Positions 1 through 63,929 of a DNA stretch of 64,000 nucleotides are shown piece after piece. Below the pieces are notes generated by a model. It had not been told where the DNA came from. It did no database searches and saw only the letters and a program-made list of their open reading frames with translations. The position numbers and the translations under genes were made by a program. The stretch's first letter is position 1. Each line of letters opens with the position of its first letter. Source of the DNA: Leucoraja ocellata (taxonomy: Eukaryota); assembly GCA_036785375.1 (NCBI GenBank), contig JAWMAR010000245.1:1488001-1552000 (forward strand), in the 5' to 3' direction.

Positions 1-1670
1 AGGTTGTCGCCAGGATGAAGTCGTTTGTCTCTGTTTTATCGGCGACCTGCTACGACTGTGACAGTCGCCGGCAGTTGACTGTCACAGCAAGGAGTCAAGA
101 CAATAGACAATAGGTGCAGGAGTAGGCCATTCGGCCCTCCATAGATGCTGCCTCACCCGCTGAGTTTCTCCAGCATTTTTATCTACCTTTGATTTTTTCA
201 GCATCTGCAGTTCCTTCTTAAACATTTTGTCTACTCCACATGTTGATGGATCTTTTCTGCACTCTTGCAACTTAATGGCATCCTTCCTACAGCTGGGCAA
301 CCTGAAATGCGCACAGTCCTCCAAGTATGGTCTCACCCATAAATGGAACAGGGCAGCATGATGTCCCAGCTTTTTTACTCTATATCTTTCCCAATGAAGG
401 CAAGTGTTCCAAATGCACTGCAGTCCACCTGTCTCGTTACCTTCATGGAATCATGCGCTTGTACTTCCAGATCTCTCTGTTCTGCAGCACTCTCCAGCGT
501 CTGAAGAAGGGTCTCGACCCGAAACCTCACCCATTCCTTTTATCCAGAGATGCCGCTGCCTGTCCCACTCCAGCATGTTGTGTCTATCTTTGGTGTAAAC
601 CAGCATCTACAGTTCCTTCCCACACTTTTCCAGAGCTCTACCATTTATCAATCAATCAATATCAGTTCTATTCGTCACTTGCACATCAACTTTGTAAGTT
701 TGGCCGTGGTTTGACAAAACCAACCCTTGTGATATTAGAGGCGGAGAGCCACTACTAAGCCAGAGCCTCACCTGTAGTTAAAGCAAATTGGTTAAAAGTA
801 ATAACCCCATCAGCAAGCTTTAGAAATGAATGTTTAATACATGTTAAATCTGAGGAGGAGAAACAGCATGCAAGGGGAAAACCAACGTAGAATTATAAAT
901 CTGACATGGTATAATACACGGGATTGCATGGAAATGATGCAAGACTCTTAAAGATAGTGGAGTCAGGGGATATGGGGAAAAGGCAGGAACGGGGTACTGA
1001 TTGGGGGTGATCAGCAATGATCAGATTGAATGGCGGTACTGGCTCGAAGGGCCGAATGGCCTACTCCTGCACTTATTGTCTATTATATTTCTCATTTCTG
1101 CATGTTCTCCTTAAAAAGCGGTTGTGCACTCATCTTGAAGAAAGCACAATTGCCTTTTAAGGAACACACTCTGAGATGGGAAATATCACGACTTCCACAC
1201 AATTGATGTCTATTTCAGCTTTATAATTCATCTTTGGAGTTCCCACCCATGTCATTTCTCAACACTGAGTTAATCTCTCCAGCTGACAAGAACAGGTCTG
1301 TGCTTGAGGAACTTGCATGGAGAGAGAGCCTTCACAGCAATACCCATGTCTAACAGATGGCCCAAGATCATTTCACAGCGAGTTGCTGATTCGAGTGAAT
1401 TTTGTGTCTCATGCATACTCATATGATAGCAGGGCATGTCCTTGAGATGTATCTTGCCACGTTTATCTTCCAAGCTGACTACTTCCTGACAGGAAGGGAA
1501 ATATTAGAAGCGAAGATCGTGCTATCAGTTCGGATTTCTGCAATTCTCAATGTCATGTCAGTAAAAAGAAAAACAGATAATAAGTAGTTAAACAATAAAA
1601 TAAGTGAAAAGCTCTTGGGTGAATGTAAATAAACCAAACCAAAAAGCCTTAAAAATGTCAATAAACTAAA

Positions 1671-27200: not shown

Positions 27201-30200
27201 TCACCCACAGAGTAATATTTCTCTTGCATTCTCTACGCAAAAGGGTTATGAAGATCCGACTGCCAAGTCCATTCCATACAAAGATTAATAGATATTTAGA
27301 TGTTAAGGGACTCGGGAGAACTGGACTTAGTGCAGGAAAGCGGCGCTGTAGTTTAAAAATAATTGTGATCTTACTGAAAGGCCAAGCAAACGTAGACACC
27401 TGAGAGGTCGTTTGCTTCTATGCACTGGGGGGTATATTTATCTTCAGAAGCTTGCCCATTTTAATCTTCATATGCTGTCAGCTGCAGAGTGAGAAGTGTT
27501 ACCATTGACACTAAACACTGCATCAAACGTTTGTGAATGATGCATTGTTTAGAGCCAATATTAATACAATTACTCATTATTAAGGCCATGCATTATAACA
27601 TGCAAAGTACTTTGTTACTGGAGTATGCAAAGTGATTCTTCTCAGCCATGCCAATGGGAATATCCACATCTAAATTATTTTTAAGTAGAAGCATTGGCAT
27701 CTAAATAATAAATAGTGTGAGGCAATAGTTTTGAAGCTGGATAATGCAGTCGCTGGTTTTAAGATCTTTCTCTCAAAAGCTGAGTATCTGGGAAATGTTT
27801 GAAATCTTCACAGTTGTTCAGGAAAACATGCTTTCATCAGATAATCCTTGCAGTTATATTACATTTTGGTATAAAGCACCAGACTGAAGATCATGACAAT
27901 TGGAGGTAACATTGTGTGTGGGCAGAAAGTTAAATGGGATTCCATATTTATATAAATGCAGAAGTAAAGAAGATAGACTAGTTTCTCTGTGGTGTTAACG
28001 TGTACCGCTAACATTAGTCGTTCAGTTTCCACGTGTAACGTGTCGTGTTCTCTTTGTCGCCAGGATGGAAAGTACAAGCAGGCCACCATCCACTACAAGA
28101 AAATCGTGTCTTGGTTGGAACATGAGAGCGGGCTGGTTGACGAATCACTAAAGCAATCTAATGCCCTGCGGCTGGCAGCCCACCTAAACCTTGCTATGTG
28201 CTACATCAAAATGGATGAGAATTTGCAAGCTGTAGAGAATTGTGAAAAGGTGGGTGTGCTAACAGAAACCATAACGTCTCATTAAAGATCTATGGCATGT
28301 TCCAGTTTTGGTCTCCTAATCTGAGGAAATAGATTCTTGCCATAGAGGGAGTACGTAGAAGGTTCACCAGACTGATTCCTGGGATGGCAGGACTTTCATA
28401 TGAAGAAAGACTGGATAGACTCGGCTTGTACTCGTTAGAATTTAGAAGATTGAGGGGGGATCTTATAGAAATTTACAAAATTCTTAAGGGGTTGGACAGG
28501 CTAAATGCAGGAAGATTATTCCCGATGTTGGGGAAGTCCAGAACTAGGGGTCACAGTTTAAGGATAAGAGGGAAGTCTTTATTCCTTCTTAAAACAGTGT
28601 CGTGTAATTAATCCTCAATATCTTTGCATTTACTTTCTTATTCTAACATCAGTGATCTTTAGCGATAGCAATATCTGATTGTTGGTCCTAAGTTCTGGCA
28701 CAGACCAGGGTTGGGGAAGGAGTTAAAATCATGTTTCGAGGACTCAACGGTCTTCCTACTCCTGTTATCCTTCAGTGAGATTATACCGCATTGGTAGTCC
28801 AGTCCTGGTTCAGTCCATTTTTCTCATCTTTGTCCTGTAACCACAGTACTATTGGATATTTCGCTGCCATCTCCAACTTCGACTTCGCCAGTTATGAAGT
28901 AGTGGCAGTGAGACAATCAAGCAGACTAAAACCAAAGACTTTAAGAAGGAACTGCAGATGCTGGAAAATCGAAGATTGACAAAAGTGCTGGAGAAACTCA
29001 GCGGATGCAGCAGCATCTATGGAGCGAAGGAAATAGGCAACGTTTCGGGCCGAAACCCTGAAGGAAATAAGCAACGTTTCGGGCCGAAACCCTGAAGGAA
29101 ATAGGCAGCGTTTCGGGCCGAAACCCTTTCTCCAGCACTTTTGTCTAACTTCAAAACCAAAGACTGATTTCTCCTGACAGTTAAGACAAAAACCACATCT
29201 CAAACCGGGTCGCCGACCTGCCCTTGGAATCGTGGATGTCATTGCGATGCCTACAGCTTTACAGCCAAATAGCCAGAGTCCTTGTTTGCATCTGGGTGTA
29301 CATTGTCTCATGCTAGACTGATCTATCCTGTGAGTAAGTCATTATCAGCTCCTTGCCTGTCCTATTTGCATGCGTTTGGCACAACCAAACGGAAGCGGAG
29401 CTCGCACGTGACATAATTTGCGTCATACTTACCAATCAGCTGGGCAGGAAGCGGGCCGACTGAATTTGGGCAGTGGCGTCATCACGCAATGCCACGTCGG
29501 GCGGTGACGTCATCGCGCTAGGCGTACGCCATCAAGACGCTGCGTACGACCGCAATGCGTCTGCGTGCCGACAGGCCGTTGGCGCGCAAAGATTTCAGAC
29601 ACTCAGATTTTCGGAGCCCCGCGCGATGTCGGGACCAGCCCCGCACAACTCCGCGCTTCTAAATGGGACCGGCCCCGCGTGGCCATACGGTGCCCATACG
29701 CCTCAAGCGACCACGAGGTTGCGTAATATGCGAGCCAAGGTCGCGTAAGTGGGACAGGCCCTTATGTCATTATCAGCTCCTTGCTGGTAATTTTTAGCAT
29801 TTCCAGAGAACCAGAGTATCTATCCTTATCGGAGATAGATAAAGCCTTCAAATCTTTATTCAAACTGGAAAAACGGGTCATTCCACTATCTTCCATGGTG
29901 TATGACTACCACACGCCTATTTCACTTCACCTGTTATATGATGCCAAGGTAAACTAACGTCTAGCTGGCCACAATATTGTTCTTTGGTCATGCATATAGA
30001 GGGTTTGAAGACTTTTTGTTCCATATCTGTCATATGCTAAGAGAATGGAGCGACTGGGCTTGTATACTCTGGAGTTTAGAAGGATGAGAGATTATCTTAT
30101 TGAAACATATAAGATTATTAAGGGTTTGGACACGCTAGAGGCAGGAAACCTGGGGCCACAGTTTAAGAATAAGGGGTAAGCAATTTAGAACGGAGACAAG

Positions 30201-32743
30201 GAAACAGGTTTTCACACAGAAAGTTGTGAGTCTGGAATACTCTGTCTCAGAGGGTGGTGGAGGCCGGTTCTCCGGATACTTTAATGAGAGAGCTAGATAG
30301 GGCTCTTATAGATAATGGAGTCAGGGGGTAAGGGGAGAAGGCAGGAACGCGGTACTGATTGGGGATGATCAGCCATGATCACATTCAATGGCAGTGTTGG
30401 CTCGAAGGGCCGAATGGCCTACTCCTGCACCTGTTGTCTATTGTCTATCAGATAGAAGATAGGATAACAGGCAGTAAGATGATTACTAAAATGTATATAC
30501 GATTCTGCTTTTATTTCAGGCGTTAGAGCTGGATGCAAACAATGAGAAGGCTCTTTTCAGAATGGGCGAGGCGAGACTTGCCATGAATGATTATGAACTG
30601 GCAAAAGCCAACTTCCAGAAGCTTGTGCAGCTCTACCCCAACAAGGCAGCCAAGGTGCAAATTGGCATCTGTCAGAAGAAAATAAAAGAACAATTGGATC
30701 ACGAGAAAAAGATCTATGCGAAAATGTTCCCAAAGTTTGGAAATAGCGATACCAAGGTAAGTAATGTTAACAGACTCAGTCATTTAAAGGGAAAATCACT
30801 GGAATTTATATAAACTGGAAAATGTAATTAAGTCAACATAACATTACATAAATGAACATACCGTCCCTTCACATACTTGATATAGACATACAGTGTGGAA
30901 ACAGCCCCTTCGGCCCAACAGGAGCCGAAACCCTGAAGGAAATAGGCAACGTTTCGGGCCGAAACCCGGAAGGGTTTCGGCCCGAAACGTTGCCTATTTC
31001 CTTCGCTCTATCGATGCTGCTTCCTCACCCACTGAGTTTCTCCAGCATTTGATTTTCCAGCATTTGCAGTTCCTTCTTAAACATGTATTCATGTGTAGGT
31101 AGCTGACAACCCAATGTATGAACATTGAATTCTCCAATTCTCCCCCCTCTTTTTTTCTGATCCCTCTCCTGTGCCTCAACAAGGCGTACAACCACTTCCA
31201 CTTCCCCTGTTCCCTTCACCTGTTCCCTTCACCTATATCCATTCTCTGGCTTCACATTTCACTCTTCTCCTTATCTGAAACCCTTTAGTTATTTCAGGTC
31301 TTTGTCCACCCACTTGCCTATCAAACCCCTCGCTTGTATCCACCCATCACTTGCTAGGCTTTGTCCTACCTCAAGTTCAAGTTTACATTGAAACTTCTCC
31401 GGCTTTCTTCCGTCACGCACAATCAGACTGATGAAGGGTCCCGACCCAAGATGTCACCTATCCATGTCCTCCAGAGATGCTGCCATACCTGCTGAGTTAC
31501 TCCAGCACTTTGTTTTTGTTTTTTTTGTAAACCAACCTTGTTGGTTCCTTGTATCTACTTGTTTGGTATTATCTAGAGACACAAGGAACTGCAGATGCTG
31601 GCTTACAGAACGAGATACAAAGTGCTAGGAGCAACACAGCGGTCAGGCTGCATCTCTAGGGAACATGGATATGCGATGTTTCAGGTCAGCATCTCCTACA
31701 CAGATGCTGCCTGACCTGCTGAGTTACTCCAGCACTTTGTGTCCTTTTTAATGTAGCATTTGATTTAATTGGATAGCATGCAAACAAAAGCGTTTTACTG
31801 TTCTTCACTACACATGATACTCAGAATAAAAGGACATACCTTTCGAAAGGAAAAGAGGAGGAATTTCTTTAGCCAGAGGGTGGTGAATCTGTGGAATTCA
31901 TAGAAACATAGAAATTAGGTGCAGGAGTAGGCCATTCGGCCCTTCGAGCCTGCACCGCCATTCAATATGATCATGGCTGATCATCCAACTCAGTATCCCG
32001 TACCTGCCTTCTCTCCATACCCTCTGATCCCCTTAGCCACAAGGGCCACATCTAACTCCCTCTTAAATATAGCCAATGAACTGGCCTCGACTACCCTCTG
32101 CGGCAGAGAGTTCCAGAGATTCACCACTCTCTGTGTGAAAAAAGTTCTTCTCATCTCGGTTTTAAAGGATTTCCCCCTTATCGTTAAGCTGTGACCCCTT
32201 GTCCTGGACTTCCCCAACATCGGGAGCAATCTTCCTGCATCTAGCCTGTCCAACTCCTTAAGAATTTTGTAAGTTTCTATAAGATCCCCTCTCAATCTCC
32301 TAAATTCTGGAGAGTATAAACCAAGTCTATCCAGTCTTTCTTCATAAGACAGTCCTGACATCCCAGGAATCAGTCTGGTTGCCGGCTGTGGAGGCCAAGT
32401 CTTTGGGTATTTTTAAAGCGGAGATTGGCGGATTTTTCATTAGTACGGGTGTTGGGTTTTGGGGAGAAAGCAGAAGAATGGGGTTGAGAGGGAGAGATGG
32501 ATCAGCCACGACTGAACGGTGGAGCTGACGCGATGGTTAGCTACTTGATGAAGTTATGATAATAATGAACCTAAACCTGGATATACACGACTGTTCCCAC
32601 AGGAAGAAGTTCTCAAATCAAAATCTGAAAAGGATGCGACCATAGAGGAAGAGAATAAGGAGAACCGGGATGAAGGAGGCAAGGGAGAGCCCATGGAGAC
32701 AGACACCAACCAAAAGTCCCAAGAGTTGGATGCCACAGCATGA
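15108..32743 (+). CDS. FKBP4: FKBP4 (FKBP52 peptidyl-prolyl isomerase / Hsp90 co-chaperone), complete 10-exon CDS, 470 aa
   Basis: Exons 15108-15215, 17503-17647, 19677-19819, 21147-21267, 22379-22535, 24207-24297, 24775-24858, 28064-28249, 30520-30756, 32603-32743 sum to 1413 nt. All introns are GT-AG and in phase. Kozak context GCCACCATG. Domains FK1, FK2 and TPR are present. The FK1 loop AGSPPK is FKBP52-type (FKBP51 has AGSLPK). Confidence 0.96.
16327..16356. promoter_or_regulatory. Intronic heat shock element (FKBP4 intron 1)
   Basis: gTTCtaGAAaaTTCtg(GCT)agTTCcaGAC: a perfect 3-unit HSE extended in register; a second TTCtgGAAgtTTA lies at 16432-16444. Confidence 0.6.
17503..17647 (+). 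CDS. FKBP4: FKBP4 exon 2
   Basis: [38 protein letters not shown]...FDLGK; CAG / GTAAGA. Confidence 0.96.
18041..19045 (+). mobile_element. CR1-clade LINE 3' fragment (RT C-terminal part and tail)
   Basis: [33 protein letters not shown] and [19 protein letters not shown] motifs; frameshifted. Confidence 0.9.
19677..19819 (+). CDS. FKBP4: FKBP4 exon 3
   Basis: [47 protein letters not shown]; CAG / GTGCGC. Confidence 0.96.
19836..20074. mobile_element. Penelope-terminus fold-back mini-element with 15-bp TSD
   Basis: Inverted arms; TGCGCTTTCCATTTG duplicated at 19821-19835 and 20075-20089. Confidence 0.85.
21147..21267 (+). CDS. FKBP4: FKBP4 exon 4
   Basis: [40 protein letters not shown]; AAG / GTAAGG. 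Confidence 0.95.
22379..22535 (+). CDS. FKBP4: FKBP4 exon 5
   Basis: [51 protein letters not shown]; CAG / GTAAGT. Confidence 0.95.
24207..24297 (+). CDS. FKBP4: FKBP4 exon 6
   Basis: [30 protein letters not shown]; TAG / GTATGA. Confidence 0.95.
24775..24858 (+). CDS. FKBP4: FKBP4 exon 7
   Basis: [28 protein letters not shown]; CAG / GTAACA. Confidence 0.95.
25150..25625 (+). mobile_element. Older CR1 LINE RT fragment
   Basis: Degenerate AFEKV..RL..K, GVPQG.VLGP and FADDT motifs. Confidence 0.7.
26521..27109. repeat. Nine-copy 66-bp tandem array derived from the Penelope terminus
   Basis: Unit GTGCTGGAGTAACTCAGCGGGTCAGGCAGCATCTCTGGAGAACATGGATAGGTGACGTTTCACAGA starting at 26521, 26587, 26653 ... 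27049. Confidence 0.95.
28064..28249 (+). CDS. FKBP4: FKBP4 exon 8 (TPR1-2)
   Basis: [23 protein letters not shown]...[13 protein letters not shown]...ENCEK; CAG / GTGGGT. Confidence 0.95.
28941..29152. mobile_element. Penelope-terminus mini-element with three 34-bp units and 13-bp TSD
   Basis: AAAACCAAAGACT at 28928-28940 and 29153-29165. Confidence 0.85.
29355..29762. mobile_element. CpG-rich MITE, same TIR family, left end damaged
   Basis: Right TIR AAGTGGGACAGGCCCT; left remnant GCCTGTCC. Confidence 0.7.
30031..30448 (+). mobile_element. CR1 LINE 3' end in FKBP4 intron 8
   Basis: Shared CR1 tail ending CTCCTGCACCT(RTTGTCT)n, 71 nt upstream of exon 9. Confidence 0.85.
30520..30756 (+). 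CDS. FKBP4: FKBP4 exon 9 (TPR2-3 and C-terminal helix)
   Basis: [45 protein letters not shown]...[18 protein letters not shown]; CAG / GTAAGT. Confidence 0.95.
31901..32380 (-). mobile_element. Young CR1 LINE 3' end
   Basis: ORF 31990-32361 [29 protein letters not shown]; tail intact. Confidence 0.9.
32603..32743 (+). CDS. FKBP4: FKBP4 exon 10 (terminal coding part)
   Basis: CCCACAG acceptor; acidic tail [46 protein letters not shown] then TGA; followed by about 2 kb of repeat-poor AT-rich 3'UTR-like sequence. Confidence 0.88.
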   Translation, partial: EEVLKSKSEKDATIEEENKENRDEGGKGEPMETDTNQKSQELDATA

Positions 32744-35228: not shown

Positions 35229-38016
35229 GGTGCAGAAACTGGGGTATTGATATTTAATTATCATTTAATAGGATCTGAAGTTAACTTGCCTGTTCCCCTT
35301 ATTTTCTGCCATGCAAGACTTTGATTAGATTAGATTAGATAGCCTTTATTGTCATTCAGACCGAAGTCTGAACGAAATTGCAGCAGTCATACATATAATA
35401 CAATAAAAACAACAATAAACACATATTAACATCCACCACAGTGAGTCCACCCAGCATCTCCTCACTGTGATGGAGGCAAAAGTCTTAGGTCTGCAGTCTC
35501 TTCCCTCCTCTTCTCCCTCTGCGCTGAGGCTGATAAGACCCACTTGGGGCATTGTGTGCAGTCCTGGCTGCCTTGCACCTGGAGGAATGCCGTTAAGTTG
35601 GAAAGGATGCAGAAAAGATTCATAAGGATATTGGTGGTTGCACCTTCTTTTCATCCGGACCCCAGTTCCTGAACCCCCCCCATTGCATGCAACATACTAT
35701 ATTATTAAAGCAAGTGAGGACCTGGCTGATTACAAAAGGCTCTGAGGCAGAGTATAAATGGAATCTGAGAGCATGGCAAGTGACTGGCGGCAAACGCAAG
35801 GGAATACAAATATATAGGAACAGAAAACGCTTGAGTGAAAATTGAAGTTGATCAGAGATTAAAAAGAAAATCTCTTCATGGAGAGATTTGTTGAGCACCA
35901 CAGTGGTGTAAGCTGTAACACCACTGCCTCACAGCACCAGAGATCCAGGTTTGATACTGACCTTGGATGCTGTTTACGTGGAGTTTGCATGTTTTCCCCA
36001 CGACTGCGCAGGTTAGCCCATGGTTCTCTGGTTCACCCACACATCCCAAAGGTGATTGTGAGTATTGCTAAGCAATTTGGACTTGGTACATTGGCCCTCG
36101 CATGTAGGTGAATAGTAGAATCTAAGGAGAGTTGTTGAAAATATGGAGAGAATTTTTTTTAAATCCCACCTTTTGAATTATTATTAAATAAATGGGCCTT
36201 TGCTAAAATTCCAGTCAGTATTTCCGATTTGTATTGAAAGACTTCCCAGATCCATTTATGGATGTTTCAAGACTCTACATCCCCCCCCCTCCCCCGTAAT
36301 AGATCTGCTGTAGATTTTCAAATTTGAAGTCCAAAGAGAATAGTTTGCTGCCATAGACAATAGGTGCGGGAGTAGGCCATTCGGCCCTTCGAGCCAGCAC
36401 CGCCATTCAATGTGATCAAGGCTGATCATCCACAATCAGTTCATGCCTTGAAAGCATCCAGAGAACCTGCCTCCACCGCCCTTTAAGTGAGAGAATTCCA
36501 CAGACTCACCACTCCCCGTGAGAAAAAGTGTTTCCTCGTCTCCATTCTAAATGGCTTACTCCTTATTCTTAAACTGTGGCCCCTGGTTCTGGACTACCCC
36601 AACATCGGGAGCCATGAGGCTTTGTTTAGTTTAGAGATGCAGTGCGGAACCAGGCCCTTCAGCCCACAGAGTCCGCTTTGACCAGCGATCCCCGCACACT
36701 AACACTATCCTACACACTGGGGACAATTTACATTAATACCAAGCCACTTAACCTACAAACCTGTATGTCTTTGTAGTGTGGGAGGACGTACAAACTCTGT
36801 ACAGACAAGTTAGGGTGAACAGGGTCTCGGGCAGCAGCTACTACACCATGCCACCCGCAGAGGTGTTCAGGACTGAATAATTAAAGGAAAACCACAAATT
36901 TTTTATCCAATCGCTTATATTCTGCATGGCTATTAGTCATAAGGGACGTTGGAAAGCAAGTAAAGACAAATCACACAAAATAATTTACTGTAATAAATGT
37001 CACTGCAATAAAAATGTCACTGGTTATAAATAGCAGGCCCTCATTTAAGTACCCTCGAACTACATCTAATAAAGAGCAGATCACAAAACGAGCAGGGCTC
37101 ACACTGACGCAGCAGGTAAGAGCTGCTGACTTGCAACATAGAAATTAGGTGCAGGAGTAGGCCATTCGGCCCTTCGAGCCTGCACCGCCATTCAATATGA
37201 TCGTGGCTGATCATCCAACTCAGTATCCTGTACCTGCCTTCTCTCCATACCCCCTGATCCCTTTTGCCACAAGGGCCACATCTAACTCCCTCTTAAATAT
37301 AGCCAATGAACTGTGGCCTCAACTACCTTCTGTGGCAGAGAACTCCAGAGATTCACCACTCTCTGTGTGAAAATTTTTTTTCTCATCTCGGTCCTAAAAG
37401 ATTTCCCCCTTATCCTTAATCTGTGACCCCTTGTTCTGGAACATCCGAGATCCGGGTTCAATCCTGAGCTCCGGTGCTGTCTGGAGTTTATACGTTCTCT
37501 CTGTGACCGCATGGATTTCCACCGGGTGCTCTGGCTTCCTCACACATCCCAAAGGCATGTGGGTTTGTAGTAAAGTGTAGGCCTCTGTAAATTGCCCCTA
37601 GTGTGTAGGGAGTGGATGAGAAAGGATTACAAAAGAACTTGTGTGAATGGGTGATCAAAGGACGGTGAAGACTCAGGTGGGCCACAGGGCCTGTTTCTCT
37701 CAATCAATTAATCATTTTTGCTAATTAATCCATTTGTCAAATGATCCGTTTACTTGCTGTTTGTATTCCCTCTTCCTAGGTGGCAGCCTTGCCCAGATTC
37801 TGACATCTTCCAGGATAGGTGTAAATGGTGTAACATTTTACATTTTCCACCCTACAGAATTAATTTTAGACTGAAGATGTACAGATGTGATAAACTTGAA
37901 ATAAAATAATCCGCTGGTCCGACAGCAGCCACGAAGAGGTAATTACAAGTCAGTTAGTTTAATGTCAGTAGTGGAAAATTATTGCAAGAAAAATCAGCGA
38001 GGCTGCAAATAATGCC

Positions 38017-38265
38017 CCCGGGGCATGAACATCGAATTCTCCCAATTCTGTTAGTCCTTGCTGTCTCCTCCCCTTCCTCAGCTCCCCTGCTGTCTCCTCC
38101 CACCCTCCAGCCTTCTGGCTACTCCTCCTTTTCCCTTTCTTGTCCCCACCCACCCCCACCCCCGATCAGTCTGAAGAAGGGTTTCGGCCCGAAACGTTGC
38201 CTATTTCCTTCGCTCCATAGATGCTGCTGCACCCGCTGAGTTTCTCCAGCTTTTCTGTGTAACCT
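38017..38265 (+). mobile_element. Penelope-like element 3' end, younger subfamily, with hammerhead motif
   Basis: ORF end GMNIEFS, pyrimidine-rich UTR, CTGAAGA-AGGGTTTCGGCCC-GAAA-CGTT (38171-38198), then terminal repeat. Confidence 0.75.
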
Positions 38266-39100: not shown

Positions 39101-39836
39101 GAAGTTATGAATTGGATCATTCTCACAGATATCTCTGCAATCAGCTGTGGAGATGGGAAAGGCCAGTCTTTGATCAACTCACTGGAAGGGCAAGCTGGTG
39201 GAGCTCGCTGGCTGGGGGCACTGGCTGGTGGAATGGTCGGCGGGCACTGGTAGAGGGCCGTGACATTGCCTATTTCCTACAGGGTTTCGGCCCGAAACGT
39301 TGGCTATTTCCTTCGCTCCATAGATGCTGCTGCACCTGCTGAGTTTCTCTATGGAGCGAAGGAAATAGGCAACGTTTCGGGCCGAAACCCTTACGGGTTT
39401 CAGCCCGAAACGTTGCCTATTTCCTTCAGGGTTTCAGCCTGAAACGTTGCCTATTTCCTTTGCTCCATAGATGCTGCTGCACCTGCTGAGTTTCTCCAGC
39501 ATTTTTGTCTACCTAAGCTTTAAGACTTGATCCCTTGACTGGTTTTTAAGATGGTGGTCACCAAGTGCAGGTTGGAAGGGTCGAGTCTGAAGAAGGGTCG
39601 CGACCTGAAATCTCCCTTCCCTCCGCAGATGCTGCCTGACCCGATGAGTTCCTCCAGCCCCTTGTGTCTTTGCGAGGGGAAACCTTTGCTCTCTCTCCTA
39701 TTCTCTGTGGCTTGCAAGGTTATGTTCAGGGACAGGCTAGCCGATACCAATCACACGTTGGAACAGTGGGAGGGGCGGCAGGGATCACAGTGAGGGGGGG
39801 TACGGGACAGGAACGTGGCTGTAGTAATGAGTGGGT

Positions 39837-40080
39837 AATTGTTCTTTTATTTTCTTCTGACAGATGCCAATTTGCACCTTGGCTGCCTTGTTGGGGTAGA
39901 GCTGCACAAGCTTCTGGAAGTTGGCTTTTGCCAGTTCATAATCATTCATGGCAAGTCTCGCCTCACCCATTCTGAAAAGAGCCTTCTCATTGTTTGCATC
40001 CAGCTCTAACGCTTGAAATAAAAGAATCGTATATTCATTTTAGGAATCATCTTACTGCCTGCTATCCTATCATCTATCTG
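39837..40080 (-). pseudogene. FKBP4: Inverted partial duplicate of FKBP4 intron 8 end plus exon 9 (pseudo-exon)
   Basis: Reverse complement of 30449-30695. The exon part (40012-39837) is 175/176 identical. The acceptor CAG is changed to CAA at 40013 and the copy is truncated before the donor. Confidence 0.95.
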
Positions 40081-40468
40081 ATAGACAATAGGTGCAGGAG
40101 TAGGCCATTCGGCCCTTCGAGCAAGCACCGCCATTCAATGTGACCATGGCTGATCATCCCCAATCAGTACCCCGTTCCTGCCTTCTCCCCATATCCCCTG
40201 ACTGCTATTTTTAAGAGCCCCATCTAGCTCTCTTGAAAGCATCCAGAGAACCTGCCTCCACCGCCCTCTGAGGCAGAGAATTCCACAGACTCACTACTCT
40301 CTGTGAGAAAAAGTGTTTCCTCATCTCCATTCTAAATGCCTTACTCCTTATTCTTAAACTGTGGCCCCTGGTTCTGGACTCCCCCAACATCGGGAACATG
40401 TTTCCTGCCTCTAGCGTGTCCAAGCCCTTAACAATCTTATATGTTTCAATGAGATTCCCTCTCATCCT
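40081..40468 (-). mobile_element. CR1 LINE 3' end fused to the inverted FKBP4 exon copy
   Basis: [21 protein letters not shown] motif; tail abuts the duplicated unique sequence at 40080. Confidence 0.9.
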
Positions 40469-42225: not shown

Positions 42226-42696
42226 TGTGAGTGGGACATCGGGTTCGTTTCCACACTGAAGGCGAGCACAGCCAGTAGGGCAACAGAATCCATCAAGTCC
42301 AGTGAAAGTATGGATGAAGGGTTCAGCGTCACAAGGGGAGAGAACGAGATGGGGACTCTTTGCAAGATGCCAACTGACTTGGATAACAACACTTTAGCTT
42401 GCAGCTATGCAATTAAATGGCAGTAAAAGAAAAGCATTCTTCAATTGAATTTCTAGAGAAGTAGTTTTGACATATTGAGCACCACTTTCAAGATGAAATA
42501 TTTGATTCTGCTGCATTTAACAGATTATTCTATTATCAATAGTCGTTTAATATGAATCCTTCAGATAAGCAGTAAACGCAATGAATTACAGATGCTGGTT
42601 TACAAAAATAGAAAGACGCAAATTGCTGGAGTAACTCAGAAGGTCAGGCAGCATCTCTGGGGAACATGTTTTGAATCTGAAGAAGGGTTCCGACTC

Positions 42697-42950
42697 GAAA
42701 CGTCACCTCTCCACAGATGCTGCCTGACCCGCTGAGTTACTCCAGCACTCTGTGAAACGTCACTTATCCATGTTCTCCACAGATGCTGCCTGACCCGCTG
42801 AGTTACTCCAGCACTCTGTGAAACGTCACCTATCCACGTTCTCCACAGATGCTGCCTGACCCGCTGAGTTACTCCAGCACTCTGTGAAACGTCACCTATC
42901 CACGTTCTCCACAGATGCTGCCTGACCCGCTGAGTTACTCCAGCATTTTG
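42697..42950. repeat. About four copies of the same 66-bp unit (opposite orientation), preceded by a hammerhead core
   Basis: Repeated GAAACGTCACCTATCCA.GTTCTCCACAGATGCTGCCTGACCCGCTGAGTTACTCCAGCACTCTGT. Confidence 0.9.
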
Positions 42951-45218
42951 TGTCATTCCTTCAGATAAACAGGTTGACAACTATCAAAGAATAATAATTT
43001 TGGTCTCTGATGTTGTCTGATATATTGACCATATTTTGATATCACCCCGTGAGCCATTGTTATCTATTCCTCTGCATCTTTAATGTCCACACTCACTCAT
43101 TTTCCCTCTCACTGGCGTACCTGAGCGTTTGATCGCACTGGGCCTGCACTCACTGGAGTTCAAGAATGAGGGGGGGACCTCATTGAAACGTACCAAATAG
43201 TGAAAGGCTTGGATAGAGTGGATAGAGATAGAATTCCATTCTGATTGTAGTTTGTTTGGTTGTTTGTTTGTTTGTCTTTTTGCACAAAGTCCACGAGCAT
43301 TGCCACTTTTCATTTCACTGCACATCTCGTATGTGTATGTGACGAATAAACTTGACTTGACTTGATGTGGAGAGGATGCTTCCACTAGTGGGAGAGTCTA
43401 GGACCAGAGGGCACAGCCTCAGAATTAAAGGATGTTCCTTTAGGAAGGAGATGAGGAGAAATGTCTTTACTCAGAGGGTGGTGAATCTGTGGAATTCTTT
43501 GTCACAGAAGGCTGTGGAGGCCAAGTCAGTGGATGTTTTTACGGCAGAGAAAGATAGATTCTTGATTAGTGTGGGTGTCAGGGGTTATGGGGAGAAGGCA
43601 GGAGAATGGGGTTAGGAGGGAGAGATAGATCAGCCGAGATTGAATGGCACAGTCGAATTGATGGGCTGAATGGCCTAATTCTGCTCCTATAATTGATCAC
43701 CCTATGACATGCAGAGAAAGACTACAAAGTTTGTTTTGCCTGTGTGTGAAGCAACTAAAACGTGCAGCCAGTGAGGGAGATTTGGCTGCAACATCTTCAC
43801 AAAAGTACTGTAATTTGGACAATGTTTGTTTTGGCTAATTATGGAGAATACTTTTACTGTTTACAGTTTCCAGTGAGCATTTTCGTGACTTCAAGTAAAA
43901 GTTTTCACTCAGGCGGCATCTGCTCAGTGAATACAGCAATCACCCCTATGCTAGAACCACACATATGAGATTAGAGATAGAACAAGCAACAGATCGTATC
44001 TTTGGCTTTCAGCACACCGTCTGATGACTCCCAGAGTGCACCCATTAGCTAAATGCCACTGTTATTGCATAGTAATCGCTGGAATTTAGAAGTATGAGGG
44101 AGGGGGGTGGGGACCTCCTTGAAACTTACCAAATAGTGAAAGGCCTGGATAGAGTGAATGTGGAGAGGATGTTTCCACTAGTGGGAGAGTCTAGAGTCTA
44201 GGACCAGAGGCCACATCCTCAGAATTAAAGGACGTTCCTTTATGAAGGAGATTGGACACGCTAGAGGCAGGAAGGTTTGGACACGCTAGAGGCAGGAAAC
44301 ATGTTGGGGGAGTCCAGAACCAGGGGCCACAGTTTAAGAATAAGGAGTAAGCCATTTAGAACGGAGACGAGGAAACACTTTTGAGTGAGTCTGTGGAATT
44401 CTCTGCCTCAGAGGGCGGTGGAGGCAGGTTCTCTGGATGCTTTCAAGAGAGAGCTAGATATATCGGAGTCAGGGGATATAGGGAGAAGGCAGGAACGGGG
44501 TACTGATTTGGGATGATCAGCCGTGATCACATTGAATGGCGGTGCTGGCTCGAAGGGCCAAATGGCCTACTCCTGCACCTATTGTCTATTGTCACTCTGC
44601 AGTCTCCTTTGTTTCTGGGTGTTTGGGTTGCTGACCCAGGCTGTGATGCAACCAGTCAGCAGGCTCTTTAACGTACACCTCTGGAAGTTTGGACTGGCTT
44701 GTGAATTTGTACATGTACAAGCCTAATTCAAGAAACCCAAACTGAAATGAATATATGTTTTAAAATAATGGTTTCATGTGGCATAGTGATCAAAGAGAAA
44801 ATAATCAACGGCTCCACAACCATAGGGATGTTGTCCGGAAACTGGGAAAAATGTACAAGTTCATGAATGTACTGGCAACATGTGTAGGAAGGAACTGCAG
44901 ACGCTGACTTGCACCAAAGATAGACACAAATTGCTGGAGTAACTCAGCGGGACAGGCAGCATCTCTGGAGAGAAGGAGTGGGTGACTTTTCGGGACGTGA
45001 CCCTTCTTCAGTCCGATAGTCAGGGGAAAGGGAGACTTGAGATATGGAAGGAAAACCGCGTGAAAATGCCAGATCAAAGCAGACGATGAGCAAGGTTACT
45101 GGCTTCCAATCCGACCCCTTCCTTCCTCCAGAGCCAGTGCTAATCCTGATCCCAATGTTCTCACCTGGTGTCGTTTGGAACAAAGACTTGCTTGGACAAT
45201 CTGAGGTGGGCTGTGTAG

Positions 45219-46607: not shown

Positions 46608-47159
46608 TTAGTTGCTGAGCTCACCAAGTTCACTGAAGGGTGAAGGAGATTTGGACTCTCCGTCACTGCTGCCTCCTCTCCTGGGCGGAGGGCACATAAC
46701 CTCGTGGAACTCGGCAGCCCTTGATGCTAAAGGCCCCCTCTCCTTGGCCCGTGACGGGTTCAGTAGCTCCTGAAGGTGCTTGATGTAGCTGATCGCCGCC
46801 CTCAAGGTCTCCACTTTGCTGAGTCTTTTGTCGGCAAAACCCTCGGGCAGGTGCTCCCTGAGGCGTGCGTAGCCCTCGTTGACGTAGCGCACCCTCTGCC
46901 TCTCCCTCTCGTTGCGTTTCCTGATGAAAGCGGGCTCAAAGGAATAGTCATAGACGCCCAGGTGACTGTGCAACGGCAGGTAGGACATCCTGCTGGCATA
47001 GGCTTCATGCAACGTACTGTCCAAGTAGGCTGCTTCGACGGGAAATGTCAATGGCAAACCCTCGGAGAAAGGCACCCCAAAGTAGTCATGTACCCTGGCC
47101 AAAGACATCCCCATGGGTCCTGGGTAAGGGATTACTCCTTCTTGCTGATTATTATCCAT
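46608..47159 (-). CDS. ASCL4: Achaete-scute family bHLH transcription factor, ASCL3/4/5 class, most likely ASCL4 (183 aa)
   Basis: [31 protein letters not shown]...[24 protein letters not shown] bHLH domain; single coding exon; head-to-head with PRDM4, as ASCL4 is in human. Confidence 0.9.
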
Positions 47160-47441
47160 TTTAAATTCCGGAGTTCAAACACAACAGCTTTCCTTTATAC
47201 TTGCCCGGGAAGAATCCAGAAAATCTTCAGTTTCAACTTTTCAAACATGTGAGGACAACATCAGGAAAGGAATGGGTTAACCTGGAATTTCACAGAGAAC
47301 ACAGGCTGTCCTACACGTCTATGTTCGAATCCCTGTGTCAAAAATGAAATAGAAAGGTTACTAGGAAAACATTCTAACTGACTTACACTAAAGAATTTAA
47401 AATCTCATATTCAGAAATAACAAACAATGTTTCAACATGTT

Positions 47442-49959: not shown

Positions 49960-50574
49960 GTGTTTAAGAAGGAACTGCAGATGCTGGAAAATCGAAGGTA
50001 GACAAAAATGCTGGAGAAACTCAGCGGGTGCAGCAGCATCTATGGAGCGAAGGAACTAGGCAACGTTTTCGGGCCGAAACCCTGAAGGAAATAGGCAACG
50101 TTTCGGGCCGAAAACCCTGAAGGAAATAGGCAACGTTTCGGGCCGAAACCCTGAAGGAAATACAAGATACAAGATACAAGATACAAGATACATTTAATTG
50201 TCATTATAGGCAACGTTTCGGGCCGAAACCCGGAAGGAACTAGGCAACGTTTCAGGCCGAAACCCTGAAGGAAATAGGCAACATTTTGGCTTGAAACCCT
50301 GAAGGAAATAGGCAACGTTCCCAGAGGTTCCCAATCACGGGTGCTGTCTGTGTGGAGTTTGCACATTCTCCCTGTGACTGCATTCGCCCGTTCTATGCAT
50401 CTAGGCATCTATGGAGCGAAGGAAATAGGCAACGTTTCGGGTCGAAACCCTTCCGGGTTTCGCCCCGAAACCTTGCCTATTTCCTTCAGGGTTTCGGCCC
50501 GAAACGTTGCTTATTTCCTTCGCTCCATAGATGCTGCTGCACCCGCTGAGTTTCTCCAGCATTTTTGTGTACCT
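49960..50574. mobile_element. Compound Penelope-terminus fold-back element with many 34-bp units and captured SINE/LINE-tail fragments
   Basis: ATGATTATAATGC at 49943-49955 and 50575-50587; internal (AAGATAC)n and a V-SINE fragment. Confidence 0.75.
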
Positions 50575-57219: not shown

Positions 57220-60200
57220 GTAGGACACGCTGATCTAACCTGAGACCACTGACAGAGTCGTGGCGCAGCGGTAGAGTTGCTGCCTTACAGCGAATGCAGT
57301 GCCGGAGGCTGGGTTTGATCCCGACTACGAGTGCTGTCTGTACAGAGTTTGTACATTCTCCCAGTGACCTGCTTGGGTTTTCTCCGAGATCTTCGGTTTC
57401 CTCCCACACTCCAAAGGTTCATTGGCTTGGTAAATGTAAAAATTGTCCATAGTGTGTGTAGGGTAGTGTTAGTGTGCAGGGATTGCTGGCCTGCGTGGAC
57501 CCGGTGGGCCGAAGAGCCTGTTTCCACGCTGTTATCTCTAAACTAAACTAAACTAAAAGTAGACGTGGAGAGGATGTTTCCATTAGTGGGAGAATCTGGG
57601 ACTAGAGGGCTAGCTACAGACTAAAATTATGTTCCTTTGGAATGGGGATGAGGAGGAATTTCTTTAGCCAGAGGGTGGTGAATTTTTGGAATTCATTGTT
57701 ACGGACAGCGGTGGAGGCAAAATCATTGGGTATTTTTAAAGCGGAGATTGATAGGTTCTTGATTAGTAAAGGTGTCATAGGTTACGGGGAGAAGGCAGGA
57801 GAATGGGATTGAGAGGGAAAGTGAGATCAGCCATGATCGAATGGTGGAGTAGACTCGATGGGCCGACTGGCCTAGTTCTGCCCCTATGTCTTATAGTTAC
57901 TCCCCACTAGCTTATGGAAGGGCAGTTCAGGTGCCTGATAATAGAGGGGAAGAAGCTGTTCCTGAGTCTGTTGGTGCGTGCAATCAAGCATCTGTACCTT
58001 CTATGAGGGCAGCAGAGAGAGGGAGGAATGACCAGGGTGGGACAAGTCATTGATTATGTTGGCTGCTTTTGGAGGCAGCGTGGTGCAAATGGAGTCAATG
58101 GTGGGAAGGGCAATTTAGATCAGGACAATTTGAAGCCTCAGTGGAGTATATTACAAGGTTGGTGTATAGATTTGATCCTGAGCATCTAAGGAGATGAGAA
58201 TAAACTAGTTGGGACAAAAGGACTACATTCATTCATCCAGTTAGTTATTGAGTTGGAAAAATAACCATCAGGTGCCCCGCTGCTGCACAATGAAATTCCA
58301 GATAGATTAGGGAATGTGTATAATTGTTACAAATCGTCAGAGCCATTAGGTTTTTAGAAGAATCTCTGGGACAAGTGGGTTGGTTTATTACCTAAAATTG
58401 GAGAATTTACTGTTCACACAAACTGGAGAAACAGCAACTCATATTCTGCTTGTGCTTAGTTTAGCTTAGAGATTCAGCGTGGAAACAGGCCCTTCGGCCC
58501 ACCGGGTCCACACCAACCAGTGAACCCCCCACACTAACACTACCCTGCGCTCGGGACAATTTTTAAAAACATTTTAGACCAAGCCAATTAACCTACAAAC
58601 CCGCACGTCTTTGGAGTGTGGGAGGAAACCAAAGTTCTCGGGGAAAACCCACCTGGTCACGGGAAGAACGTACAAACTCTGTACAGACAAGCACCTGTAG
58701 CCAGGATGGAACCTGGGTCTCTGGCGCTGTAAGTGCTGTAAGGCAGCAACTCTACCGCTGCGCCTTCGTGCCGCCATGTTAAGTGCTTGATACATGTCGG
58801 TTTGTTTTCATCCGTTTCTCGTTGGTTTAATTGCAGGAATGCCCGTAGCGATCCCGAACCTGAGCCCTACCTTGGGCACTCTCCCCTCCGCCCTCTCGTT
58901 GATGCTTCCGATGAGCATCGGGGAACGTGGCGTCATGTGCAGCATTCCTGACCGCAATTACACGCTGCCCCCTCCTCCTTACCCACACCTGGACAACAGC
59001 TACTTCCGGCACATTTTGCCAGGTAAGCAATGACCTGACTGCAAACGGGAAACCTTCAGCATAAGATCTCTTCTACATTTGACATAGTTACAAAATGTTA
59101 TGCTTTGTTCCAGTGGCTAACACGCTGATCTCCCGGTGGCTCAGCACCAACTCCCCCTTCCCATTCCCAATCTGACCTTTCTGTCCTGGACCTCCTCCAT
59201 TGTTAATGTGAGGCCCAGCGCAAATTGGAGGAACAGCACCTCATATTTCGCTTGGGTAGTTTACACCCCAGCGGTATGAACATTGACTTCTCTAACTTCA
59301 GATAGCCCTTGCTTTCTCTTTCCACCCCTTCCAAGTTCTCCCACCAGCCTTGCTGCCTCTGCCTACATTCTATGTTTGTCTCGCGCCCTCCCCTGACATC
59401 AGTCTGAAGAAGGGTCTCGACCCGAAATGTCACCAATTCCTTCTCTCCAGAGATGCTGGCTCACCCGCTGAGTTACTCCAGCATTTTGTGTCTACCTTTG
59501 ATTTAAACCAGCATCTGCAGTACTTTCTGACACAACACAGTTCTCCTCATCTCTTTTATCCATCAGTCTGCTTTTTTTTTTATAGTTTCAAGTTCCTTGG
59601 TGTAAATATAGAATGTAGAACAGGCCCTTCAGCCCACAATGTTTTGTGCAGAACAAGATGTCGAGACCAACTCCATCTGCCTGTGCTTAACGCATATCCC
59701 TCCATTCCCCGCATATCCACGCGCCTATCTAAAAGTTTCATAAACGCCAGTATTGTATCTGCCTCCACCACCACCTCTGGAAACGTGCTCCAGGCACTCA
59801 ACCCCGTTGGGTTTAAAAAAAAAAGCTGTCCCTCAAATCTCCTTTAAACTGTGGCCCTCTCACCTTAAAGCTGTACACTCTGGTATTTGGGTTTTCCATC
59901 CAGGGAAAATTTATCAATAATTTATCCTGATCCAATCACATAATCAATACAGTAAGAAAGCCTCTTCTCCCTCAGAAGGCAAAGGAAATTGAGCACATCG
60001 CCAAACACCCTTACCCATTTGTACAGATACACCATAGAAAGCACACAATCCAGATGTATTACAGCTGAAGTTAATAAAGGCACAAGGAACTGCAGATGGA
60101 AGTCTATGGAACTGATGCACTACATTGCTGAGAACTATATTCTGCACGGTAGACACAAATGCTGGAGAAACTCAGCGGGTGAGGCAGCATCTATGGAGAG

Positions 60201-61437: not shown

Positions 61438-61443
61438 GTAAGT

Positions 61444-61960
61444 TATAACCATATAACAATTACAGCACGGAAACAGGCCATCTCGGCCCTACAAGTCCGT
61501 GCCGAACAACTTTTTTCCCTTAGTCCCACCTGCCTGCACTCATACCATAACCCTCCATTCTCTTCTCATCCATATGCCTATCCAATTTATTTGAAATGAT
61601 ACCAATGAACCTGCCTCCACCACTTCCACTGGAAGCTCATTCCACACCGCTACCACTCTCTGAGTAAAGAAGTTCCCCTCATATTACCCCTAAACTTCTG
61701 TCCCTTAATTCTGAAGTCATGTCCTCTCGTTTGAATCTTCCCTATTCTCAAAGGGAAAAGCTTGTCCAGATCAACTCTGTCTATCCCTCTCATCATTTTA
61801 AAGAGCTCTATCAAGTCCCCCCTTAACCTTCTGCGCTCCAGAGAATAAAGACCTAACTTATTCAACCTATCTCTGTAACTTAGTTGTTGAAACCCAGGCA
61901 ACATTCTAGTAAATCTCCTCTGTACTCTCTCCATTTTGTTGACATCCTTCCTATAATTGG
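61444..61960 (-). mobile_element. CR1 LINE 3' end immediately downstream of the PRDM4 donor
   Basis: [39 protein letters not shown]. Confidence 0.85.
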
Positions 61961-62092
61961 ATTGGATTGGTTTAACATCGCCGTTTGTGGTAAAACTAAA
62001 TAGCCATGGGATCTAAGTTGTAACGTGCTCGGAATCAGCTCCGTCATCATTATTCTGCAGCTGATCTATATCCACATGTATCTTCTGCCCAC

Positions 62093-62385
62093 CGGAAATT
62101 GGAGGAGCAGCACCTCATATTCCGCTTGGGCAGTCTGCACCCTAACGGCAATAAACATTGACTTCTCCAATTTCCGGTAGCCCTTGCTGTCTCCTCCCCT
62201 TCACAGCTCTCCATCATCCCTCGGGTGTCTCCTCTTCCTTTTTCCTGTCTTCTCCTCGCCCCCCCAACCCCCTCCCCCACCCTCCATCAGTCTGAGAAGG
62301 GTTTTGGTCCGAAATGTTGCCTATTTCCTTGCTCCATAGGGCCACTGCACCCGCTGAGTTTCTCCGGCACTTTTGTCTACCTTGT
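62093..62385 (+). mobile_element. Penelope-like element 3' fragment
   Basis: Encodes [27 protein letters not shown], followed by a degenerate hammerhead region. Confidence 0.75.
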
Positions 62386-63715: not shown

Positions 63716-63773
63716 GAACCACAGAATGCTGGAGTAACTTAGCGGGTAAGGCAGCATCTCTGGTGAACATGGA

Positions 63774-63929
63774 TAGGTGACGTTTCAGATCGAGACCCTT
63801 CTTCATATTCAATAGGTGACATTTCACGTTGGGACCCTACTTCAGACTAAATAGGTAATGTTTTGGGTCGGGAACCTTCTTCAGACCCAGTAGGGGATGT
63901 TTCGTATCGGGACCCTTCTTCAGACCCCA
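63774..63929 (-). repeat. Four-copy 39-bp tandem array of degenerate hammerhead cores
   Basis: Units start TAGG at 63774, 63813, 63852 and 63891; - strand consensus GT-CTGAAGA-AGGGTCCCGACCC-GAAA-CRTC-ACCTA. Confidence 0.8.

What the first reader, a model, noticed from the sequence alone, without database searches (positions are those of the whole stretch)
38161..38265. Minimal hammerhead-ribozyme motif at the core of the most abundant short repeat (Penelope terminus)
Seen: the repeat carries CTGAAGA + A + hairpin (GGGTC-TC-GACCC or GGGTT-TC-GGCCC) + GAAA + C + GTC/GTT. It lies directly downstream of Penelope GIY-YIG ORF ends (38171, 59404, degenerate near 62292). It also occurs without an ORF on + at 501, 10742, 31428, 39587, 42677 and 56737, and on - near 8375, 10590, 22170, 44985 and 52890. 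Established: this is the type I hammerhead core (CUGANGA / helix II / GAAA / NUH). Penelope-like elements are known to carry minimal hammerheads with a very short palindromic helix III that cleave as dimers, and an extra A after A9 is tolerated in natural hammerheads. Inference: the skate family has helix III reduced to ACGU/AACGUU, so it would need a second copy in order to cleave. Helix I is only about 2 bp in most copies, so activity is uncertain. A dozen or more copies in 64 kb, several in introns, would mean a very large genome-wide load of conditional self-cleaving motifs.
Basis: partly seen in the sequence, partly recalled or inferred. Interest (0 to 1): 0.7.

Follow-up and report, generated by a model that had tools for sequence, protein, structure and literature searches.

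The report
Penelope retrotransposon end carrying minimal hammerhead
This very common short repeat is the end piece of a known kind of jumping gene and carries the stripped-down self-cutting RNA motif already described for that class; most copies are damaged and the motif is predicted to be nearly idle, but many copies begin just ahead of it, which suggests the motif likely sits at the very start of the element's RNA, on top of its promoter.

Summary
The motif is real. It is the minimal type I hammerhead (min-HHR) of Penelope-like elements (PLEs; Cervera and De la Pena 2014), in the terminal repeat of a Neptune/Nematis-type PLE (RT, CX4CX2C linker, GIY-YIG). The genome holds 67,792 intact-core matches and about 400 terminus fragments per Mb. 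No trace of cutting was found: 2 of 179 solo copies begin at the cut site, while 45 begin 1-3 nt ahead of CUGA, at an initiator-like TCAGT with MTE/DPE-like matches at textbook spacing. Likely, the short repeats are cDNAs of the first 95-130 nt of uncut RNA, and ribozyme and internal promoter overlap. The 'large load of conditional self-cleavers' is overstated. The scan reported this family and the 5' pile-up before on other DNA; a word search of its notes found none on the promoter overlap. New member of a known kind.

The parts
38016..38054 (+). Last 12 codons and stop of the PLE ORF (…GMNIEFSQFC*), 5'-truncated; GIY-YIG motif itself absent
   Evidence: tblastn with the L197 ORF, 73% over 11 aa; same ending in L118 and L130
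38055..38165 (+). Pyrimidine-rich 3' UTR, subfamily-specific (young subfamily 'C3')
   Evidence: UTRs differ strongly among 5 clusters while the motif downstream is nearly invariant
38166..38172 (+). Initiator-like TCAGTCT; inferred RNA start at A38168; supplies the 2-bp 5' strand of helix I
   Evidence: 5' ends of solo copies pile up at -2..0; motif match (Inr consensus recalled)
38171..38198 (+). Minimal hammerhead core: CUGAAGA, extra A, helix II 38179-38190 (4 bp + UUCG), GAAA, loopless AC/GU, predicted cut after U38198
   Evidence: sequence; strict descriptor; published consensus
38185..38199 (+). MTE-like (+18..+29; 8/12 here, 9/12 in the other clusters) and DPE-like (+28..+32; 4/5) matches overlapping helix II and the GAAAC-GUH strand
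   Evidence: MTE consensus and position from PMC8384218; DPE consensus recalled
38199..38263 (+). Conserved downstream segment: pyrimidine strand predicted to pair with and lock the core, then a hairpin; the copy ends at the first of two end clusters (+87-95), without the 35-nt tail
42677..42704 (+). Second intact core in the window (helix I 1 bp), followed by a 66-bp array that lacks the CUGA half
59124..59520 (+). Older ORF-linked copy (core at 59404, 15.2 C>T) in sense orientation in an intron of a PRDM4-like gene (gene name recalled)
62081..62385 (+). ORF-linked copy with a 1-nt deletion in the core (62292)
63773..63927 (-). 39-bp tandem array of four decayed full cores (one with a 5-bp helix I)

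Best explanation
The repeat is the terminal repeat of a Neptune/Nematis-type Penelope-like retrotransposon carrying that class's known minimal hammerhead motif, which is predicted to be nearly idle here and likely sits 3 nt behind the element's RNA start. Shown: the motif, its link to an RT + GIY-YIG ORF, two 3' end clusters 35 nt apart, target-site duplications, inverted pairs, and a 5' end pile-up at -2..0 with none at the cut site. Inferred mechanism: the element is transcribed from an internal promoter (initiator TCAGT, MTE/DPE-like bases inside the hammerhead); its protein starts reverse transcription internally 95 or 130 nt into the RNA, as shown in vitro for an anole PLE; copying from the first repeat runs off the 5' end of uncut RNA and inserts a 95-130-nt piece, giving the roughly 1.4 million fragments (extrapolated). 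Only 3 nt precede the core, helix III needs a second copy, and a rival hairpin sequesters the core, so cleavage would need a tandem partner and protein help; dispersed copies decay neutrally and would almost never cut host RNA.
For: ORF with PLE RT motifs, CX4CX2C linker and GIY-YIG; 1,068 homologues, best rows carrying PF00078/PF26215/PF01541. Fit to the min-HHR consensus; the Acropora Neptune row has the same architecture. All 5 lineage-level variable sites in -1..+30 are structure-tolerant (loop L1, L2; U-A to U-G at 11.4 and 1.1; C17U); none falls in the catalytic core (rough p 0.01). 5' ends: 45 of 179 solos at -2..0 against 2 at +28..30; truncation hazard 0.115 against 0.0035 per nt over 371 copies, 27 tandem and 8 edge copies dropped. 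TSDs in 14 of 49 solos against 0.7 for shuffled pairs. 3' ends cluster at +87-95 and +123-130, like the PLE tail and the two RT start sites of PMC11167929. Contigs of two other organisms show the same depth step, and one has unrelated flanks at -2/-1. Initiator 7/7 in 5 of 5 cluster consensuses; MTE 9/12 at +18 (background 0.0024; 0.01 on composition shuffles). D. virilis Penelope has an internal Inr/DPE promoter. Helix II probability 0-0.24, helix I about 0; active dimer 12-15 kcal/mol above the rival folds for the main subfamily.
Against: No RNA start was observed: no read-start pile-up in 2 raw-read runs laid on a good reference, though embedded copies swamp any signal and the runs come from another organism. 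A cap-derived extra G is weak at best: 39 of 100 listed junctions have G at -3 against 28 expected, and only 1 of 39 TSD-defined junctions shows it. Ends at -6..-3 are as frequent (hazard 0.13) and include copies with UTRs missing from my references and inverted junctions with microhomology. The DPE match is weak (background 0.17), and the promoter motifs are Drosophila-derived. No full-length 5' end of the element was recovered, so the ORF start relative to the motif is unknown. Folding ignores tertiary contacts and protein. No two-sided covariation, so selection on structure rests on 5 sites.
Confidence: 0.7

Rival explanations
1. One reading: an active dimer-dependent ribozyme whose many dispersed copies are a real load of conditional self-cleaving sites in host RNA.
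For: 67,792 intact cores; the repeat is in 48,961 of 17.6 M and 48,441 of 12.9 M RNA records of a related organism; lineage changes keep the structure; GUU triplets are common and 2-bp helix I occurs in 6 of 56 published rows (by eye).
Against: 2 of 14 cited copies intact; 2 same-strand pairs among 55 cores; helix I 2 bp in 22 of 27; rival fold; no ends at the cut in DNA or RNA; published min-HHRs cut weakly even as dimers, and the anole one only with protein.
Confidence: 0.12
2. The 5' pile-up is not the RNA start but a strong reverse-transcriptase stop at the foot of the hammerhead or its rival hairpin within a longer RNA; the initiator-like motif is coincidental.
For: The predicted rival hairpin spans about +3..+41; further ends occur at +4..+16, mostly in inverted pairs; cap-G evidence is weak.
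Against: The boundary lies 2-5 nt outside the predicted hairpin and on the +1 A of an initiator with an MTE-like match at the right spacing; a stall would more likely come on entering the hairpin from the 3' side (+31..+40 hazard is low, 0.007).
Confidence: 0.25
3. The motif is a vestigial hammerhead kept only as promoter and protein-binding sequence, with no catalytic role even in the master element.
For: 4 of the 5 variable sites also fit the promoter consensus; the conserved blocks downstream are as invariant as the core; HHR mutants did not affect anole PLE insertion in vitro; Naiads thrive without HHRs.
Against: CUGAnGA and the GGG strand of helix II (+4..+15 from the inferred start) are invariant across 5 clusters with divergent UTRs, which core-promoter motifs do not explain.
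Confidence: 0.25
4. The pyrimidine tract plus CAG before the core is a spliceosomal intron end that remodels helix I, as in D. virilis Penelope.
For: Y-rich tract and CAG in all 5 clusters; precedent in PMC4209133.
Against: The donor at the stop codon is not conserved (GT in 2 of 5 clusters); only 2 genomic hits for the joined form, one duplicated locus that is not ORF-joined; no GT-AG joint among the joints shown; solos share no upstream exon.
Confidence: 0.05

Closest known systems
Minimal hammerheads (min-HHR) of metazoan PLE pseudo-LTRs (Cervera and De la Pena 2014, PMC4209133); nearest row: Acropora digitifera Neptune
   Same: CUGANGAH core with an extra base after A9, G10.1-C11.1, loopless palindromic C-G helix III, GUC/GUU cut site, 4-bp helix II with tetraloop, location in the pLTR, mostly solitary truncated copies
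   Different: Helix I 2 bp (consensus 3; 2 bp in 6 of 56 rows); copy number 67,792 against about 4,000 (coelacanth) and 9,000 (Xenopus) by their descriptor; very low sequence diversity; no cartilaginous fish among the 56 rows or in the main text (supplementary file 1 could not be searched)
PAc, Poseidon PLE of Anolis carolinensis (Frangieh et al. 2024, PMC11167929)
   Same: HHR near the 5' end of the unit, two internal RT start sites defining a 30-40-nt tail, no reads ending at the cut, uncut RNA as template
   Different: Penelope/Poseidon clade rather than Neptune/Nematis type; PAc's ORF starts inside helix II, whereas the ORF start here was not found; PAc activity is measured (protein-assisted), this one is untested
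Neptune/Nematis EN+ PLEs (Craig et al. 2021, PMC8557442)
   Same: C-terminal GIY-YIG with CCHH-type cysteines, CX2-5CxxC linker, 5' truncation, inverted 5' copy, optional tail
   Different: No tree was built, so Neptune and Nematis are not separated; solos here often have 7-14-bp TSDs
Internal Inr/DPE promoter of D. virilis Penelope (Schostak et al. 2008, PMC2377424)
   Same: TATA-less internal promoter in the pLTR (inferred here)
   Different: There an intron separates start and hammerhead; here the inferred promoter would overlap the ribozyme core
Non-LTR retrozymes (bioRxiv 10.64898/2026.07.22.740005)
   Same: PLE pLTR-derived, type I HHR; reported in one chondrichthyan
   Different: Defined as tandem units each with a complete HHR; this repeat is dispersed, and its common 34- and 66-bp arrays lack the CUGA half

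Membership tests
PLE min-HHR | CUGANGA + extra base, GAAA, NUH core | tested here: met
   (intact in 2 of 14 cited copies; invariant in 5 of 5 cluster consensuses)
PLE min-HHR | Helix II closed by G10.1-C11.1 | tested here: met
   4 bp + tetraloop; G-C in 138 copies, G-T (CpG decay) in 40
PLE min-HHR | Palindromic 15.2/16.2 without loop (dimer helix III) | tested here: met
   C-G in all clusters; decays by CpG loss in about 40% of copies
PLE min-HHR | Helix I of about 3-5 bp | tested here: inconclusive
   2 bp in 22 of 27: below the consensus but within the published range (6 of 56 rows, by eye)
PLE min-HHR | Location in the pLTR of an RT + GIY-YIG element | tested here: met
   116 ORF-linked copies among fetched loci
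PLE min-HHR | Two-sided compensatory changes among families | tested here: not met
   only one-sided U-A to U-G changes within this genome; a relaxed genome search showed no second family in the 100 of 8,638 matches listed
PLE min-HHR | Self-cleavage as a dimer | not testable with these tools
   indirect footprints negative
Canonical type I hammerhead (Rfam Hammerhead_1) | Match to the covariance model; 6-bp helix I with tertiary loop | tested here: not met
   no hammerhead family among 22 matches at E<=1
Neptune/Nematis EN+ PLE | PLE RT followed by C-terminal GIY-YIG | tested here: met
   (GIY-YIG below the Pfam cut-off, E 0.002-0.02)
Neptune/Nematis EN+ PLE | CX2-5CxxC linker | tested here: met
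   CNRRRCNTC-type motif in the ORFs; diagnostic
Neptune (as against Nematis) | RT phylogeny | not tested
   no reference set was at hand
Non-LTR retrozyme | Tandem units, each with a complete HHR | tested here: not met
   2 same-strand pairs among 55 cores in 1 Mb; the only full-core array in the window (39 bp) is decayed
Inr+MTE/DPE core promoter | Motifs at fixed spacing from +1 | tested here: inconclusive
   Inr 7/7, MTE 8-9/12, DPE 4/5; the RNA start itself was not observed

The most novel reading that the evidence does not exclude
The minimal hammerhead is written on top of the element's internal Pol II core promoter (initiator 3 nt ahead of CUGA, MTE/DPE inside helix II and GAAAC-GUH), so one 35-nt stretch is promoter as DNA and a locked, protein-released ribozyme as RNA; the million-fold short repeat is the run-off cDNA of that uncut 5' end. 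The layout may be general: by eye, 9 of the 56 published min-HHR rows have TCAKTY 4-9 nt ahead of C3 (about 1.5 expected).
Probability: 0.35. Interest if true: 0.6.

Novelty: new member of a known kind. Interest (0 to 1): 0.3.

Why it matters
As a motif it is ordinary: PLE pLTR hammerheads have been known since 2014, and this adds a cartilaginous-fish family with an unusually high count. Its use is as a natural record of PLE mechanism. Hundreds of thousands of insertions mark where cDNA synthesis started (two sites) and ended (just ahead of the hammerhead, not at its cut). That supports the in vitro finding that uncut RNA is the template and makes the open question of what PLE hammerheads do directly testable. 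If promoter and ribozyme overlap, part of the conservation read as ribozyme selection would be promoter selection, and the short helix I would be explained.

Tried and rejected
Rfam scan: no hammerhead hit, only palindrome-driven miRNA matches below gathering score. Intron ending at the CAG before the core: rejected. Cleavage footprint in the genome (lead from note e1-9886385): patterns for copies restarting at +29, +28 and +30 gave 121, 111 and 281 hits, many of them 1-nt insertions or local duplications; no excess at the cut. Cap-derived G: weak and inconclusive. A second hammerhead family in this genome: none seen in the 100 of 8,638 matches listed. First read-laying used a reference with a deletion across the core and says nothing about it. 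No RNA holder was listed on record by the run search; the raw RNA runs laid came in by species label and are from another organism than the best holders. Single-cell strand bias (3-8:1 over the repeat) was not interpreted because the kit is unknown. A full-length element with its 5' UTR was not found among 20 RT-bearing loci or 137 tail ends. Lunse et al. (PMC5785218) is not held; seen only as a citation in PMC6765202. The Atlas did not hold the PRDM4-like exon, so that name stays recalled. Literature searches for chondrichthyan PLE hammerheads or promoter overlap returned no paper whose listing describes either; subscription journals and Repbase are not covered.

Full report
Observation. The repeat is at all 14 quoted places. 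At 38171 it reads CTGAAGA A GGGT TTCG GCCC GAAA CGTT. A strict descriptor (CUGANGA, optional extra base, paired helix II, GAAA, palindromic pair, UH) found 2 copies in the window (38171, 42677) against 1 hit in 50 shuffles, and 27 in a blind sample of 100 stretches of 10 kb against 0-1 in 5 shuffles (stretches). The 3.44-Gb genome has 21,383 exact copies of the commonest 28-mer and 67,792 matches to an intact-core pattern, with 0 for the reversed control. The terminal piece occurs as 406 fragments per Mb in the blind sample and 78 in the window, about 1.4 million by extrapolation. Helix II is 4 bp with a tetraloop, and helix I is 2 bp in 22 of 27 intact copies. Rfam gives no hammerhead match.

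What it belongs to. [quoted passage not shown] Pfam GIY-YIG scores are below the curated cut-off, but 1,068 homologues were found, the best of which carry PF00078, PF26215 and in part PF01541; the closest named ones are shark and ray proteins at 60-66%. The linker marks the Neptune and Nematis clades (PMC8557442, passages and section 6); no tree was built. Of 116 ORF-linked copies among all fetched loci (a partly pattern-selected set), 87 fall in 5 clusters whose pyrimidine-rich UTRs differ widely while the motif and the 100 nt behind it are nearly identical. The copy at 38171 belongs to the youngest cluster (median 92% to consensus in the blind sample, 96% in the window) and carries only the last 12 codons. 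Hallmarks of PLE insertions are present: 131 of 406 fragments are in inverted pairs, 3' ends cluster at +87-95 and +123-130 (numbering from C3 = +1), and 14 of 49 solos have 7-14-bp duplications against 0.7 for shuffled pairs.

Is it kept as a ribozyme? Across 406 fragments, the lineage-level variable sites between -1 and +30 are five: two loop bases, U-A to U-G at 11.4 and at 1.1, and C17U. All are tolerated by the hammerhead and none is catalytic (rough p 0.01). No two-sided compensatory change exists, and conserved blocks downstream are as invariant as the core. The motif fits the published min-HHR consensus, and the Acropora Neptune row has the same build (PMC4209133: main text parts 1-2 of 4, supplement file 2 parts 1-2 of 3). 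That paper reports weak cleavage even for dimers, and the anole PLE hammerhead cuts only with protein, is not needed for insertion in vitro and leaves no read ends at the cut (PMC11167929, parts 1-2 of 4). Folding predicts that GAAGAAGGG pairs with the pyrimidine strand just behind the cut site: helix II probability 0-0.24, helix I about 0, and the active dimer 12-15 kcal/mol above the rival folds for the main subfamily (tertiary contacts and protein are not modelled). Partners in cis are rare: 2 pairs within 3.5 kb among 55 relaxed-intact cores.

Footprints of cutting. If cut RNA were copied, insertions would begin at +29. Only 2 of 179 solos begin at +28..30. Genome-wide patterns for restarts at +29, +28 and +30 gave 121, 111 and 281 hits, many of them 1-nt insertions or local duplications, with no excess at the cut. 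In RNA of a related organism the repeat is abundant (48,961 of 17.6 M and 48,441 of 12.9 M records), with no place where many molecules begin or end. Embedded copies would swamp such a signal, so this is weak evidence.

Where copies do begin. 45 of 179 solos begin at -2..0; the truncation hazard is 0.115 per nt at -2..+1 against 0.004-0.02 elsewhere, apart from -6..-3 (0.13), which includes copies whose UTR was not among my references and inverted junctions. In solos the match to the element falls to near background between -2 and -3. Contigs of two other organisms show the same depth step. Position -2 is the A of TCAGT, a full initiator match in all 5 clusters (consensus recalled). Counting that A as +1, bases +18..+29 match the MTE consensus at 9 of 12 places (8 in the young cluster; background 0.0024, 0.01 on composition shuffles), and +28..+32 match the DPE at 4 of 5 (background 0.17) (MTE consensus and position from passages of PMC8384218; DPE consensus recalled). 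D. virilis Penelope has an internal Inr/DPE promoter (PMC2377424, passages and section 15). By eye, 9 of the 56 published min-HHR rows have TCAKTY 4-9 nt ahead of C3, against about 1.5 expected from a rough base composition. A cap-derived G is only weakly suggested: 39 of 100 listed junctions against 28 expected, and 1 of 39 TSD-defined junctions. No RNA start was observed directly.

Mechanism. Most likely the element is transcribed from an internal promoter 3 nt ahead of the core. Its protein starts reverse transcription 95 or 130 nt into the RNA; copying from the first repeat runs off the 5' end and inserts the short piece, while copying from the last repeat gives the 5'-truncated ORF-bearing copies such as 38171. 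With only 3 nt ahead of the core, helix I cannot exceed 3 bp in the first repeat. Cleavage, if any, would need a tandem partner and protein. Promoter, internal priming and protein dependence are inferred. Rivals are an RT stop at the structure (0.25), a vestigial ribozyme (0.25), an active genome-wide load (0.12) and an intron end (0.05).

Novelty. The motif class, its dimer logic and its spread in truncated copies are published. I found no cartilaginous fish in the 2014 paper (one supplementary file not searchable) and no listing that describes one in searches; a 2026 preprint reports retrozymes in one chondrichthyan (part 1 of 5 and passages). Lunse et al. was not available and is known to me only as a citation (PMC6765202, passages). 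PMC3138052 and PMC6155905 were read in passages only. Earlier notes of this scan describe the same family and the 5' pile-up on other DNA, one in this genome; I had recorded the pile-up before seeing them. A word search for the promoter overlap found no note. Verdict: real, a new member of a known kind, interest 0.3; the promoter-ribozyme overlap is the one lead worth a bench test.

Noticed in passing
window 19922-19986, 29026-29127, 39395-39460, 50049-50319, 50449-50521: 34-bp reiterated unit (+8..+41 of the young terminus, lacking the CUGA half). Its junction has 890 exact hits in the genome; the first 100 listed lie mostly in the distal parts of C1, C16, C23-25, C33 and C34, none on C2-C14. 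Possibly recurrent template switching inside palindromic insertions in high-recombination regions.
   Followed up: partly
window 3586-3768, 26519-27109, 42708-42952: 66-bp tandem arrays starting at +21 of the terminus (GAAAC onward); the same start accounts for 21 of 27 tandem fragments in the blind sample.
   Followed up: partly
window 63773-63927 (-): 39-bp array of four full but decayed hammerhead cores, one with a 5-bp helix I: a tiny retrozyme-like arrangement.
   Followed up: partly
L197:5339-5460 (-): A solo terminus beginning exactly at the T before CUGA is inserted into the ORF of another copy of the same element, with a short duplication.
   Followed up: partly
window 30147-30695 and 39837-40373: 550-bp inverted duplicate (90%) containing an FKBP4-like TPR exon.
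   Followed up: no
window 46611-47174 (-), about 58830-61445 (+): A bHLH ORF (Pfam HLH) and exons of a PRDM4-like gene (name recalled); the copy at 59404 lies in sense orientation in its intron, with a damaged helix III pair.
   Followed up: partly
window 38199-38263 and equivalent copies: AGATGCTG (+48..55) and CAGCATCT (+106..113) form a predicted 8-bp long-range helix enclosing two hairpins, next to the two 3' end clusters; a candidate protein-binding and RT-start structure.
   Followed up: partly
   Followed up: no
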